From NCBI GenBank assembly GCA_042571405.1, contig JBHPHU010000001.1, positions 9,298-73,297 of the forward strand: DNA of 64,000 nucleotides, read 5' to 3'. The notes beneath the pieces were generated by a model, which was given only the letters and a program-made list of their open reading frames with translations, did not search any database and had not been told where the DNA came from. The translations under genes and the position numbers were made by a program. Shown piece by piece: positions 59,427 through 61,466 of this stretch (the first letter of the stretch is position 1; every line of letters starts with the position of its first letter). Origin of the DNA: Candidatus Omnitrophota bacterium (GTDB lineage: Bacteria; Omnitrophota; Gorgyraeia; Gorgyraeales; Gorgyraeaceae).

Positions 59427-61466
59427 TTATGCTACTTTACAATTAGCCTCGCACATACGTTCCAGGCGGGCCCAGTTTTCATCAATATCTTTTTGGATTT
59501 CTTCCAGGATATGTTTATTTTCTTCCTTAAAGAGATGCTTGAATCTGCCCTGGGGTTTTAAGAATTCCACGACGGGCTTACGTTGTTTTGGCTTGTATGT
59601 AAATTTCCAATTTCCATTTTCTATTTCGATCAAAGGCCAGAAACCTGTTTCAACTGCTAGTTTTGATATCTCGATCGTCTTTTCCTGCGGGAATCTCCAG
59701 CCTCTGTGACACATGGAGATCACATTTAAGAATGCCGGGCCATCTACCTTAAATGCCTTTTCTGCTTTTGTTACAAGGTCATTCCAGCTAGACGCAGAAG
59801 CTTGAGCTACATATGGGATCTTGTGAGCAGCTACTATTGTTGTGAGATCTTTTCTAAATTGCTGTTTACCAGAACTTGCCTTTCCCGCAGGCGCAGTTGT
59901 TGTCGACGCGCCTTTAGGCGTTGCACCGGAACGTTGAATCCCGGTATTGTGAACCACTATGCCATCAGCAATAAAATTATGTTCACCTTCTACCCTTAGA
60001 TCTAATGTCGGCTCTTTACCTACTAACTTTATACTTCCTACCTTTTCCATTTCGAAATATTCGTTACCTATTAAAAAATTCTGATACTTATATTGATTAG
60101 GGTATTTTTTAACATTCCATTTTTCCCTGTCACTGAAGCATACATATCCATACTTCGAATCCTTCAATAACCTCCTGTTTACACATTTTGCTCCTCTTTC
60201 CTTGACCTGCCAATGGATCTTTCCTACTCTTTTACCCATTGTCTGTAAAAATAGTCTTAGGCTCTTGAGTAAATCTTCACTTACTGAAACATAACGCCAA
60301 CTATTTCCGCATTTATACCCGTCTGAAAGCATAAGCCCTTCTACTAGCGCTTCTTTTTGTTCTATTGGCAAAGCAAATGCCCAGCCAGGAATGGTTTTAT
60401 TCTTCGCGCCAATACCAACACCCAAACTCTTTATGAAATTCCCCAAATTTACAGAATTTGCATAAACGTACTCTTCATCAACAGAATTTATCTTGCTTCC
60501 GAAAATCTTCGCGTGAATCTTTACAAGCTCTTTCCTGCCAACTGTATTTTCAGGAAGCGCAAACCCCACTTCTCCTCTTTTTTCTCTTATCCAGCCATCA
60601 CCTATATATAATCCCAGATACTTCATGAGGTCTGGACTAGAGGAACGCGGTATATTGATATCGTTTAACTTATTTACCTTATAATCGCCTTTCTTAACCT
60701 TCCTAAAATCAAATATAGCTGACTTAGAGTATCCATTTAACCCTTTTAAAGTTACTACCTCATCTCCTATCTTTACATCTTCCAGTTTCTTCCACGCAAG
60801 CCTGTTGGTCTTGCCTGTTCCGCCTCTCTTTAAAACTAAAAACGGGTGATTCGAAGTAGCTTTTATAGAATGGTGCAAAGTATTAAGCTCGTAAACATCT
60901 TTTACCCCATTATCAAAGACGCCTGAGCATTCTTTTAAAACCAATTGATGCGTCTTCTGGTCAAAGGCATATACTTTATCGCCTATTTTTATTTCAGTAA
61001 TTTTTTTAAGTCCCTTTTCCGTCATTATCATAGATGAAAGGCTCAAGCAGTTCATATAAGCTTCGTTATTATAGCAGACATATACAAAATTATGGCCGCG
61101 TTCTAGCGCGCCTGAAAGCGATTGAAGTCCTATGTCAAAGGTCCCTCCATCGCCGCCGAATGCAACGAACTTGATTTCCTTTTTGATCTTTCCTTTTTTC
61201 TTTAATGCTCGATAAGCTGTTTCAACGCCGCTTATCGTCGCCGCCACATTTTCAAATGCATTATGGATAAATGGCGTTTTCCATGCAGTATACGGGTAAA
61301 TAGTAGTTGCTACTTCGAGACATCCTGTAGACGCTCCAACTACTACAGGATCTTTTGTCCCCAGTAAGACCTGACGCACTACAATAGACGCGCCGCATCC
61401 TGCACAAAGCCTGTGTCCGCCTGATAAACGTTCCGGTTGTTTCGAAAGTTCTTTTATGTTGGCCAT
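59427..61466 (-). CDS. porB: pyruvate/2-oxoacid:ferredoxin oxidoreductase beta (TPP-binding) subunit, containing an intein
   Basis: CAGCG N-terminus, GDG-x25-NN TPP motif, and extein junction NEAYMN | TGIQRSG. Start at MANIKEL (61466) behind a GAGAGGG RBS. Confidence 0.9.
   Translation of the reverse strand: [679 protein letters not shown]
59946..61049 (-). mobile_element. 368-aa intein with LAGLIDADG homing-endonuclease domain
   Basis: Begins [13 protein letters not shown] (block A), with TSNHPF (block B). [10 protein letters not shown] and [10 protein letters not shown] are the LAGLIDADG motifs. Ends [11 protein letters not shown] followed by Thr+1. Confidence 0.9.

What the first reader, a model, noticed from the sequence alone, without database searches (positions are those of the whole stretch)
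59946..61049. LAGLIDADG intein inserted next to the TPP-binding motif of the PFOR beta subunit
Seen: the PorB reading frame is interrupted, 6 residues after the GDG-x25-NN thiamine-pyrophosphate motif, by 368 aa. The insert starts with Cys (CLSLSS...), contains TSNHPF and two LAGLIDADG-type motifs, and ends ...VVHN followed by Thr. Removing it gives the conserved [13 protein letters not shown] sequence. Established: inteins sit in highly conserved catalytic sites and usually occur in replication or repair proteins. From memory, a PFOR/2-oxoacid oxidoreductase beta subunit is an unusual host. Together with the tRNA intron only 30 nt away, two self-splicing elements sit side by side.
Basis: partly seen in the sequence, partly recalled or inferred. 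Interest (0 to 1): 0.65.

Follow-up and report, generated by a model that had tools for sequence, protein, structure and literature searches.

The report
Homing intein inside pyruvate oxidoreductase PorB
The gene for the beta subunit of pyruvate:ferredoxin oxidoreductase in this uncultured Omnitrophota bacterium is interrupted at its active site by a canonical self-splicing protein element (an intein with a LAGLIDADG homing endonuclease); the element itself is an ordinary kind, but I found no paper describing this host and site, and it occurs in hundreds of uncultured bacterial and archaeal genomes.

Summary
porB (59427..61466, minus strand) carries an in-frame 1104-nt, 368-aa insert at 59946..61049. 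It starts with Cys1, ends with His-Asn, and is followed by Thr+1. Removing it restores [12 protein letters not shown], which aligns without a gap to solved PFOR beta subunits. The residue before the insert matches Asn996 of the Desulfovibrio PFOR substrate pocket.

The insert passes Pfam and NCBIfam intein thresholds. Its AlphaFold model (pLDDT 93) matches intein homing endonucleases, best TliVMA (TM 0.74). It keeps TxxH, block F/G residues and both LAGLIDADG aspartates.

The closest PorB orthologs (93-95% identical, syntenic) lack the insert exactly. Others carry 153-351-aa degraded versions at the same site. The family was found in 269 stretches of GTDB species genomes, in Bacteria and Archaea, always at this site. 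Inteins are more alike than their host exteins in 96% of pairs, which indicates horizontal spread.

The neighbouring tRNA-Asn does contain a 255-nt group I intron, at anticodon position 35/36. Its presence varies independently of the intein.

Verdict: a new member of a known kind in an unusual metabolic host, not found in the searchable literature. NCBI annotations often truncate these genes. Splicing and cleavage remain untested.

The parts
59427..61466 (-). porB precursor gene (679 aa plus stop): beta (TPP-binding) subunit of a four-subunit pyruvate:ferredoxin oxidoreductase, interrupted by the intein
   Evidence: ORF. The spliced 311-aa product hits PDB 9bt4_C PFOR beta (E 2.4e-83) and NCBIfam PorB NF008819 (389.8 bits). 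93-95% identical 311-aa orthologs exist.
61050..61466 (-). N-extein (139 aa). Contains the CxGC and TGC cluster cysteines, the GDG...NN TPP/Mg2+ motif, and the -1 Asn equivalent to DaPFOR Asn996.
   Evidence: Roles of the motifs come from PMC5020499.
59946..61049 (-). Intein, 368 aa (1104 nt), class 1: Cys1 ... His367-Asn368, followed by Thr+1
   Evidence: AF2 pLDDT 93.4. Foldseek top hits are TliVMA, PhoVMA, PI-PkoII, PI-SceI and PI-PfuI. There is a precise 1104-nt indel against the empty alleles in L002 and L003.
60735..61049 (-). N-terminal splicing region (intein residues 1-105): block A (Cys1), block B (T65-x-x-H68), and the family-specific invariant Cys41 (60927..60929)
   Evidence: TIGR01445 covers residues 1-72. 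Cys41 is analysed.
60075..60677 (-). LAGLIDADG homing endonuclease domain (about residues 125-325), with motif 1 at 60591..60629 (Asp151) and motif 2 at 60315..60350 (Asp243)
   Evidence: The fold matches I-DmoI and intein endonucleases. Pfam LAGLIDADG_3 scores 20.0 bits, just under its cut-off of 22.5. dN/dS is 0.095.
59946..60074 (-). C-terminal splicing region (residues 326-368): block F (D350, H357-N358-F359) and block G (H367-N368)
   Evidence: TIGR01443 covers residues 350-368. It aligns to DnaB intein C-termini.
59427..59945 (-). C-extein (172 aa plus stop), starting with Thr+1 (TGIQRS...). Contains the fourth predicted cluster cysteine (Cys218 of the spliced protein).
61520..63547 (-). 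The rest of the operon: porA (61520..62701), porD (62698..62985) and porG/C (62978..63547)
   Evidence: NCBIfam PorA_Arch 534 bits, PorD_Arch 110 bits and PorC_KorC 223 bits. The gene order is the same in L001-L005.
59066..59396 (-). Neighbouring, independent element: tRNA-Asn(GUU) gene split by a 255-nt ORF-less group I intron (59107..59361) at anticodon-loop position 35/36
   Evidence: Rfam RF00028 scores 81.3 bits. ARAGORN finds tRNA-Asn only after the intron is removed. An intron-less tRNA-Asn sits at the same place in L002.

Best explanation
This is a bona fide class 1 intein with a nested LAGLIDADG homing endonuclease. It sits in porB between the substrate-pocket Asn (-1) and a Thr (+1), five residues after the Mg2+/TPP-binding Asn. 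Inferred mechanism: the 679-aa precursor is translated, and the HINT domain folds and carries out the standard four-step splicing. (1) An N-S acyl shift occurs at Cys1, assisted by block B Thr65/His68. (2) The N-extein is transesterified onto the Thr+1 hydroxyl. (3) Asn368 cyclises, assisted by His367, and releases the intein. (4) An O-N shift forms the [12 protein letters not shown] peptide bond. Only the spliced 311-aa PorB can build the TPP site and probably the proximal [4Fe-4S] cluster, because three predicted Cys ligands lie in the N-extein and one in the C-extein. Splicing is therefore obligatory for PFOR activity. The free intein is predicted to act as a site-specific DNA endonuclease. 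It would cut intein-less porB alleles at the sequence spanning GCTTATATGAAY|ACNGGNATYCA, and repair from the intein-bearing copy would then insert the element (homing). That explains its patchy, cross-domain distribution. Shown here: the anatomy, fold, exact junctions, empty and degraded alleles, purifying selection, and incongruence between intein and host. Inferred and not tested: actual splicing, endonuclease activity and its target.
For: Sequence: Cys1, T65xxH68, D350, H357-N358-F359, H367-N368 and Thr+1 are all present. All of these intein residues are invariant in 54 family members. Profiles: PF14890 scores 56.5 against 35.8, and TIGR01445 and TIGR01443 are above their cut-offs. Structure: the AF2 model has pLDDT 93.4 and pTM 0.90. 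Foldseek top hits are intein homing endonucleases: 7qsu (E 1e-22, TM 0.74/0.75), 7qst, 2cw7, 1vde and 1dq3, with I-DmoI matching the endonuclease domain. Junction: the spliced protein aligns gap-free to 9bt4_C, 5c4i_C and 1b0p. The -1 Asn corresponds to DaPFOR Asn996, a substrate-pocket residue that rotates on pyruvate binding (PMC5020499). Empty alleles: 115 of the 120 closest PorB proteins (78-95% identical) are 306-324 aa (one 277-aa fragment) with no insert. Syntenic loci L002 and L003 show a precise 1104-nt absence. Homing-cycle series: the site is the same in every homolog with both junctions, and sizes run 365-371, 351, 349, 325, 320, 302, 280, 270, 224...165 and 153 aa. Endonuclease integrity: both LAGLIDADG Asp residues are present. 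GDGW occurs in 77 of 79 species copies and none has a stop codon. dN/dS of the endonuclease part is 0.095 against L005. Horizontal spread: 269 matching stretches were found in GTDB species genomes, from Omnitrophota, Aerophobetes, Patescibacteria and Cloacimonadota to Bathyarchaeia, DPANN, ANME-1 and Methanosarcinales. Intein identity exceeds C-extein identity in 96% of 2701 pairs, with medians of 61% and 45%. Intein dS is 0.83 against 1.5-2.1 for the exteins, window versus L005.
Against: There is no experimental evidence for splicing or DNA cleavage for any member of this family. Pfam LAGLIDADG_3 scores 20.0 bits for this copy, just below its gathering score of 22.5. The dS values are near saturation, so the 'younger intein' argument from dS is only suggestive. 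The intein's GC content (37.0%) differs from the exteins (44.0%), but GC3 differs little (35.1% against 38.5%). Composition therefore gives no clear sign of recent import. The closest full-length relatives sit in the same lineage (L001, L005), so this copy may be inherited vertically and no longer be homing.
Confidence: 0.92

Rival explanations
1. A domesticated, conditional intein. Splicing is gated by redox state, for example by a disulfide involving Cys1 and the family-specific Cys41, so the oxygen-sensitive PFOR matures only under reducing conditions. This is compatible with the main explanation and adds a regulatory layer.
For: Cys41 is invariant in 54 of 54 aligned family members, mini-inteins included, and in 79 of 79 GTDB species copies. 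The same position is Val in 52 of 64 related inteins from other hosts, and Cys in only 2. The host is an oxygen-labile Fe-S/TPP enzyme of strict anaerobes. Mini-inteins that have lost the endonuclease persist at this site. Redox-trapped inteins are a known phenomenon; Callahan et al. 2011 is cited within PMC4760082.
Against: The Cys1-Cys41 distance could not be measured because no model coordinates are available. A buried Val-to-Cys change can be a neutral founder substitution. Most very close orthologs do without the intein, so it is not required. Persistent mini-inteins are also expected from simple inability to excise precisely.
Confidence: 0.1
2. A dead insertion. The element no longer splices, so porB is a pseudogene or a permanently disrupted protein, and PFOR activity is supplied by another gene.
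For: NCBI annotations of relatives call only 'hypothetical protein' or 'LAGLIDADG family homing endonuclease' starting inside or just before the intein. Splicing is untested.
Against: The reading frame is continuous through the N-extein, intein and C-extein here and in L001 and L005. All catalytic residues are intact. dN/dS is 0.009-0.04 for the exteins and 0.08 for the intein. None of the 79 species copies has a stop codon. The truncated NCBI calls are start-codon artefacts: the 417-nt N-extein is simply left unannotated. No second por/kor gene was seen among the large ORFs of the window.
Confidence: 0.03
3. The intein and the adjacent tRNA group I intron form one composite mobile unit, or are functionally coupled.
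For: They lie 30 nt apart. Both are present in the window, L001 and L005.
Against: L003 has the intron but no intein. L002 has neither, yet keeps an intact tRNA-Asn at the same place. The intron has no ORF. The intein occurs in archaea and distant bacteria, where porB context differs. tRNA-Asn 35/36 introns are an independent, described class (PMC13011429).
Confidence: 0.03
4. An assembly or chimera artefact of a metagenome contig.
For: The window probably derives from a metagenome-assembled genome.
Against: The same in-frame insertion at the same codon occurs in independent assemblies from many projects. These include a complete genome (CP045477.1) and a single-cell genome (L061).
Confidence: 0.01

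Closest known systems
Archaeal VMA inteins with homing endonuclease (TliVMA, PDB 7QSU/7QSS; PhoVMA, 7QST)
   Same: These are the best structural matches (Foldseek E 1e-22 to 4e-19; TM 0.66-0.75). They share the two-part architecture of a HINT splicing domain plus a nested LAGLIDADG endonuclease, and are similar in size.
   Different: Sequence identity is only 17-18%. The host is an ATPase catalytic subunit, not a TPP/Fe-S oxidoreductase. Those structures are solved; this one is a prediction.
PI-SceI, PI-PfuI and PI-PkoII (the classical intein homing endonucleases)
   Same: Same fold and domain order (PI-PkoII is also a sequence hit). They have two LAGLIDADG motifs with one catalytic Asp each, and are class 1 inteins with Cys1 and His-Asn.
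   Different: Sequence identity is 11-14%. They are larger, with extra DNA-recognition regions. Their hosts are VMA1, RNR and DNA polymerase. Their splicing and cleavage have been demonstrated, unlike here.
SufB inteins and T4-like phage portal-protein inteins from metagenomes (P0242, P0259, P0264; P0250, P0256)
   Same: These are the nearest sequence relatives outside PorB, at about 30-35% identity over the full 368 aa. They share C1, TxxH, both Asp residues and HN.
   Different: Identity drops sharply from at least 56% within the PorB family to at most 35%. Position 41 is Val rather than Cys. The +1 residue is mostly Ser (47 of 64) rather than Thr.
DnaB mini-inteins (Npu DnaB 4O1R, Ssp DnaB 1MI8)
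   Same: These are the best solved-structure sequence matches for the splicing domain (E 3e-9 and 8e-8), including ATxNHxFL and the DL-V-G-HNF-A--I-VHN C-terminus.
   Different: They have no endonuclease domain. Their host is a replicative helicase and the +1 residue is Ser.
Group I introns at position 35/36 of tRNA-Asn/Asp in Patescibacteria (Nakagawa et al. 2026, PMC13011429). This applies to the neighbouring element only.
   Same: Same tRNA (Asn, GUU) and same 35/36 insertion point. It has no ORF and is missed by standard tRNA finders.
   Different: It is found here in Omnitrophota. That phylum is not among those the paper lists for 35/36 insertions (Patescibacteria, Cyanobacteriota, Nitrospirota, Bacillota_A, Bipolaricaulota, Pseudomonadota).

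Membership tests
Class 1 intein (HINT superfamily) | Nucleophilic Cys or Ser as the first residue (block A) | tested here: met
   Cys1 is encoded by TGC at 61047..61049. It is invariant in 54 of 54 family members.
Class 1 intein (HINT superfamily) | Block B Thr-x-x-His | tested here: met
   T65-S-N-H68 is present, and T65 and H68 are invariant.
Class 1 intein (HINT superfamily) | Block F Asp/His region and block G penultimate His plus C-terminal Asn | tested here: met
   D350, H357-N358-F359 and H367-N368 are all invariant. TIGR01443 scores 26.9 bits against a cut-off of 15.6.
Class 1 intein (HINT superfamily) | Cys, Ser or Thr as the first C-extein residue | tested here: met
   Thr+1 is present (ACC at 59943..59945). 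The TG motif follows HN in all 79 species copies.
Class 1 intein (HINT superfamily) | HINT fold | tested here: met
   The AF2 model has pLDDT 93.4. Foldseek matches intein, Hedgehog and BIL structures with probability 1.00. Pfam PF14890 scores 56.5 against 35.8.
Class 1 intein (HINT superfamily) | In-frame insertion in a conserved host motif, with colinear intein-less orthologs | tested here: met
   The alignment of the spliced product is gap-free. 311-aa orthologs are 93-95% identical. There is an exact 1104-nt indel in syntenic L002 and L003.
Class 1 intein (HINT superfamily) | Autocatalytic protein splicing that yields ligated exteins | not testable with these tools
   This needs expression with SDS-PAGE or mass spectrometry.
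LAGLIDADG homing endonuclease (two-motif, monomeric type) | Two LAGLIDADG helices, each ending in a catalytic acidic residue | tested here: met
   Motif 1 is [11 protein letters not shown]151GW and motif 2 is [10 protein letters not shown]243GY. G150-D151-G152-W153 and D243-G244 are invariant in full-length members. Helices 139-151 and 229-242 appear in the model.
LAGLIDADG homing endonuclease (two-motif, monomeric type) | Profile-HMM membership | tested here: inconclusive
   PF14528 scores 20.0 bits, below its gathering score of 22.5, for this copy. Many family members have a precomputed PF14528 hit. The fold matches I-DmoI (E 5e-4, TMt 0.62).
LAGLIDADG homing endonuclease (two-motif, monomeric type) | Site-specific cleavage of the intein-less allele | not testable with these tools
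   The evidence is indirect only: empty alleles exist, dN/dS is 0.095, and intein and host histories are incongruent.
PorB (beta subunit of four-subunit pyruvate:ferredoxin oxidoreductase), the host protein | Sequence membership of the spliced product and the porG-porD-porA-porB operon | tested here: met
   PDB 9bt4_C gives E 2.4e-83. NCBIfam NF008819 PorB is the best hit at 389.8 bits, although this is below the strict equivalog cut-off of 405, so substrate specificity (pyruvate or another 2-oxoacid) is not proven. Operon partners are identified.
Group I intron in tRNA (the neighbour) | Rfam RF00028 match above the gathering score; removal restores a canonical tRNA; the 5' exon ends in U and the intron ends in G | tested here: met
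   The Rfam score is 81.3 bits against 50. tRNA-Asn(GUU) is recovered. The exon ends ...GGCUGU, followed by the intron UGCACG...CAGAGUG, then UAACC. Self-splicing was not tested.

The most novel reading that the evidence does not exclude
The PorB intein family has been retained as an oxygen/redox-sensitive maturation switch rather than only as a selfish element. In this reading the family-specific, invariant Cys41 (Val in related inteins of other hosts) forms a disulfide with the catalytic Cys1 under oxidising conditions. Splicing would then be blocked, and the oxygen-labile PFOR would be completed only when the cell is reduced. This would be a post-translational control of central carbon and electron flow in uncultured anaerobes of both domains.
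Probability: 0.08. Interest if true: 0.7.

Novelty: new member of a known kind. Interest (0 to 1): 0.4.

Why it matters
1. It places a canonical mobile intein in a host class where inteins are rarely reported: a central-metabolism TPP/[4Fe-4S] oxidoreductase. The insertion is exactly at the substrate/TPP pocket. This supports the rule that inteins target the most conserved catalytic sites whatever the protein's function.

2. The family is large and crosses domains. It was found in 269 stretches of GTDB species genomes, from Omnitrophota, Patescibacteria, Aerophobetes and Cloacimonadota to DPANN, Bathyarchaeia, ANME-1 and Methanosarcinales. Empty, full, decaying and mini states are all present, sometimes within one lineage. 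It is therefore a good natural system for studying the homing cycle and gene flow between bacteria and archaea in anoxic habitats.

3. There is a practical consequence. NCBI annotations of many MAGs truncate the gene to 'hypothetical protein' or 'LAGLIDADG family homing endonuclease' and leave the N-extein uncalled. PorB, and hence PFOR, can therefore be scored as missing in metabolic reconstructions.

4. Mini-inteins of 153-175 aa with Thr+1 from mesophilic anaerobes could serve as protein-engineering parts.

5. The neighbouring tRNA-Asn 35/36 group I intron extends a class just described in Patescibacteria to Omnitrophota.

Tried and rejected
- ARAGORN on the raw window finds no tRNA. The tRNA-Asn appears only after manual removal of the intron.
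- A nucleotide MAFFT alignment of intein-plus and intein-minus alleles misplaced the gap. I replaced it with a direct codon-for-codon comparison of the spliced gene with the 936-nt empty alleles.
- Literature searches found no description of a PFOR/PorB intein. The queries were 'intein' with 'ferredoxin oxidoreductase', with 'PorB', with pyruvate/oxidoreductase/metagenome terms, and with phylum names. Two searches failed on term syntax. The supplementary tables of Novikova et al. are not held, so a listing there cannot be excluded.
- A scan of IMG/VR viral contigs with the intein alignment found only distant inteins, at most 30% identical over the full length, and no PorB-family member. No viral vector is supported.
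- Composition as evidence of recent import was rejected as uninformative. The GC difference is 37% against 44%, but GC3 is 35% against 38.5%.
- A composite element with the tRNA intron was rejected because L003 has the intron without the intein.
- I looked for other inteins or por paralogs among the ten largest ORFs of the window and found none.
- The Cys1-Cys41 distance could not be computed, because model coordinates are not exposed.
- My first parse of the phmmer alignment was wrong and was redone. My early numbering of the first LAGLIDADG Asp as D150 was corrected to D151.
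Full report
**1. What is in the sequence**

On the minus strand a four-gene operon runs porG (62978..63547), porD (62698..62985), porA (61520..62701) and porB (59427..61466). porB encodes 679 aa.
- Residues 1-139 end in ...[36 protein letters not shown].
- Residues 140-507 are CLSLSS...ADGIVVHN.
- Residue 508 onward is [12 protein letters not shown]....

The 368-aa middle part maps exactly to 59946..61049, the coordinates of the finding. 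Cys1 is TGC at 61047..61049, Asn368 is AAT at 59946..59948 and Thr+1 is ACC at 59943..59945. One small correction: the insertion lies after the fifth residue following the NN of the TPP motif.

**2. It is an intein by every test available here**

- Profiles: Pfam Intein_splicing scores 56.5 bits (cut-off 35.8) and spans residues 8-368. NCBIfam intein_Nterm (26.2 against 24.5) and intein_Cterm (26.9 against 15.6) both pass.
- Catalytic residues of a class 1 intein are all present: Cys1, block B Thr65-x-x-His68, block F Asp350 and His357-Asn358-Phe359, block G His367-Asn368, and Thr+1. All of the intein residues are invariant in an alignment of 54 family members.
- Between the two halves of the splicing domain sit two LAGLIDADG motifs, [11 protein letters not shown]151GW and [10 protein letters not shown]243GY. 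Both catalytic aspartates are present. The Pfam LAGLIDADG_3 score for this copy is just under threshold (20.0 against 22.5).
- Structure: an AlphaFold2 model built on the family alignment is very confident (pLDDT 93.4, pTM 0.90).
  - Its best PDB matches are intein homing endonucleases: TliVMA 7QSU (E 1e-22, TM 0.74/0.75), PhoVMA, PI-PkoII, PI-SceI and PI-PfuI.
  - Mini-inteins match the splicing domain, and I-DmoI matches the endonuclease domain.

**3. The extein junction and the site**

The conceptual spliced protein (311 aa) aligns without a gap across the junction to three solved structures: PFOR beta subunit 9bt4_C (E 2.4e-83, [12 protein letters not shown] identical), oxalate oxidoreductase beta 5c4i_C, and the single-chain Desulfovibrio africanus PFOR 1b0p.

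In 1b0p numbering, GDG contains Asp963 and the -1 Asn is Asn996. According to Yan et al. 2016 (PMC5020499):
- Asn996 lines the pyruvate pocket and rotates on substrate binding.
- Its Sulfolobus equivalent (Leu123b) controls substrate specificity.
- The Asn five residues upstream binds the Mg2+ of TPP.

The CxGC motif that ligates the proximal [4Fe-4S] cluster and a third Cys lie in the N-extein. The fourth ligand lies in the C-extein. It aligns to 1b0p Cys1071; its role as a ligand is from my memory of the DaPFOR structure. The unspliced precursor therefore cannot be an active enzyme, and splicing is obligatory. This step is inferred, not shown.

**4. Empty, full, decaying and mini alleles at one site**

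A search with the spliced extein returned 120 closest PorB proteins, 78-95% identical.
- 115 are 306-324 aa (one is a 277-aa fragment) with an uninterrupted NEAYMNTG(I/V/T)Q.
- 5 carry a 153-aa mini-intein at the same position. One of these (P0133) has an N-terminal 71 residues nearly identical to the window's intein.
- This list is not an unbiased census, because full-length precursors rank lower in that search.

Syntenic loci from related Omnitrophota genomes show the polymorphism directly.
- L002 (GCA_042572045.1) and L003 (GCA_964566255.1) have 936-nt porB genes. They are 82-84% identical in DNA to the window's exteins and lack exactly the 1104 nt.
- L001 (GCA_043814965.1) and L005 (GCA_042563605.1) have the intein (77% and 85% nt identity).

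A search with the intein alone returned 223 proteins. Every listed hit in which both junctions could be read has the same junctions (...Y[M/A/E]N|C...HN|TG.Q). Sizes form a series: 365-371, 351, 349, 325, 320, 302, 280, 270, 224, 211, 203, 198, 192, 175 and 165 aa. Some shortened copies have lost the catalytic Asp (GNGW). This is the pattern expected for the homing cycle: invasion, fixation, endonuclease decay, mini-intein.

**5. Distribution and horizontal spread**

A scan of one genome per GTDB species found 269 stretches encoding a relative. The 80 best (79 of them covering the full intein) are at least 57% identical.
- Bacterial hosts: Omnitrophota, Aerophobetes, Parcubacteria/Patescibacteria, Cloacimonadota, Poribacteria, Vermiphilus and uncultured Clostridia.
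- Archaeal hosts: Bathyarchaeia, Hadesarchaea, Micrarchaeota, Aenigmatarchaeota, Woesearchaeota, Nanoarchaeota, Iainarchaeum, Ca. Forterrea (complete genome CP045477.1), ANME-1 and Methanosarcinales.
- All 79 full-length copies sit at the same site, none has a stop codon, and 77 keep GDGW.

Across 74 species with complete inteins and C-exteins (2701 pairs), the intein is more similar than the C-extein in 96% of pairs. Medians are 61% and 45%. Intein identities span 49-94%, while extein identities span 33-96%. A selfish insert that is more uniform than its essential host gene indicates that the intein family is younger than the host divergence and has moved horizontally, including between domains.

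Between the window and L005, dN/dS is 0.08 for the intein and 0.095 for the endonuclease part. Intein dS (0.83) is lower than extein dS (1.5-2.1). dS is near saturation, so this last point is only suggestive.

The family is sharply bounded. In a search of 1.84 billion representatives, identity falls from at least 56% to 30-35%. The next relatives are inteins in SufB and in T4-like phage portal proteins. No family member was found on IMG/VR viral contigs.

**6. A family-specific feature that I cannot explain**

Cys41 lies in the long beta-hairpin of the N-terminal splicing domain.
- It is invariant in 54 of 54 aligned members, minis included, and in 79 of 79 species copies.
- The same position is Val in 52 of 64 related inteins from other hosts, and Cys in only 2.

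It may be a harmless founder substitution. Alternatively it may partner Cys1 in a redox-dependent disulfide, which would be attractive for an oxygen-labile enzyme. I give this reading a probability of about 0.1.

**7. The neighbour**

Thirty nucleotides downstream of the porB stop lies a tRNA-Asn(GUU) gene (59066..59396, minus strand). It is split by a 255-nt ORF-less group I intron (59107..59361; Rfam 81.3 bits). The intron sits between anticodon-loop positions 35 and 36. The 5' exon ends in U and the intron ends in G. ARAGORN misses the gene unless the intron is removed.

This is the insertion type recently described and shown to self-splice in Patescibacteria tRNA-Asn/Asp (Nakagawa et al. 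2026, PMC13011429). Omnitrophota is not among the phyla listed there.

The two elements vary independently. L001 and L005 have both. L003 has the intron only. L002 has neither, and keeps an intact tRNA-Asn at the same position. Their adjacency is therefore a coincidence of gene order, not a composite element.

**8. Comparison with what is known, and verdict**

Mechanistically and structurally this is a standard class 1 intein with a LAGLIDADG homing endonuclease. All sequence, profile and fold criteria of membership are met. Only the biochemical activities remain untested.

What is unusual is the host.
- Published surveys find 61.5% (bacteria) and 66.9% (archaea) of intein hosts in replication, recombination and repair, and a further 21.7% and 8.3% in nucleotide metabolism. 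PFOR is absent from the top-15 tables (PMC4760082).
- My searches of the held literature found no description of a PFOR/PorB intein.
- Automated JGI product names such as 'pyruvate/2-oxoacid:ferredoxin oxidoreductase beta subunit/intein/homing endonuclease' do exist.
- NCBI has intein-aware exception models for RtcB, GyrA and Tes, but none matched for PorB.
- Many NCBI MAG annotations start the gene at MNCLS... or inside the intein and leave the N-extein unannotated.

I classify the finding as a real, well-supported new member of a known kind and give it moderate interest. The element class is ordinary. The host, the exact active-site position, the cross-domain abundance in uncultured anaerobes, the complete homing-cycle series and the annotation consequence are worth recording.

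Noticed in passing
window 59066..59396 (-); intron 59107..59361: A tRNA-Asn(GUU) gene is interrupted by a 255-nt ORF-less group I intron at anticodon-loop position 35/36, and ARAGORN does not find the gene. The insertion type matches the one just described for Patescibacteria (PMC13011429), here in an Omnitrophota genome. The intron is present in relatives L001, L003 and L005 and absent in L002.
   Followed up: partly
window 61467..61519 (palindrome 61480..61514): The 53-nt porA-porB spacer contains a perfect 15-bp inverted repeat with a 5-nt loop (AACCTCGTAGGTTGC CGTAG GCAACCTACGAGGTT), just upstream of the porB ribosome-binding site. It is unique in the window. In relatives L002, L003 and L005 porA and porB abut or overlap, and in L001 no such hairpin is seen upstream of the porB start. 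The spacer therefore looks like a lineage-specific insertion, possibly an RNA hairpin or a small mobile palindrome.
   Followed up: partly
L001 9560..11599; L005 5590..7629; proteins P0001, P0002, P0006, P0015 and others: NCBI annotations of intein-bearing porB genes start at the Met two residues before the intein (MNCLS...) or inside it (MTE...). They name the product 'hypothetical protein' or 'LAGLIDADG family homing endonuclease'. The 417-nt N-extein is left uncalled although the ORF is continuous, so PorB can appear to be missing from these genomes.
   Followed up: yes
window intein residue 41 (60927..60929): Cys41 is invariant in all PorB-intein family members examined (54 of 54 and 79 of 79). 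It is Val in 52 of 64 related inteins of other host proteins. The reason is unknown; a possible redox role is untested.
   Followed up: partly
window 56949..58716, and the 3' flank of tRNA-Asn in L001, L002, L003 and L005: The region downstream of tRNA-Asn differs between relatives. The window has a nucleotidyltransferase/HEPN pair (57690..58262 and 58252..58716), then Fur (56949..57380) and a Fic-domain protein (54467..55630). L001, L003 and L005 have a large serine recombinase. L002 has a nitroreductase. This suggests the tRNA-Asn 3' side is an integration hot spot.
   Followed up: partly
L005 456..1087: Two tandem 90-aa GIY-YIG domain ORFs lie upstream of dnaX in the intein-bearing relative L005. 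They may be another homing-endonuclease-like element in the same neighbourhood.
   Followed up: no
window 25882..28020 (-): A GTP-type PEP carboxykinase carries a C-terminal DUF5661 domain.
   Followed up: no
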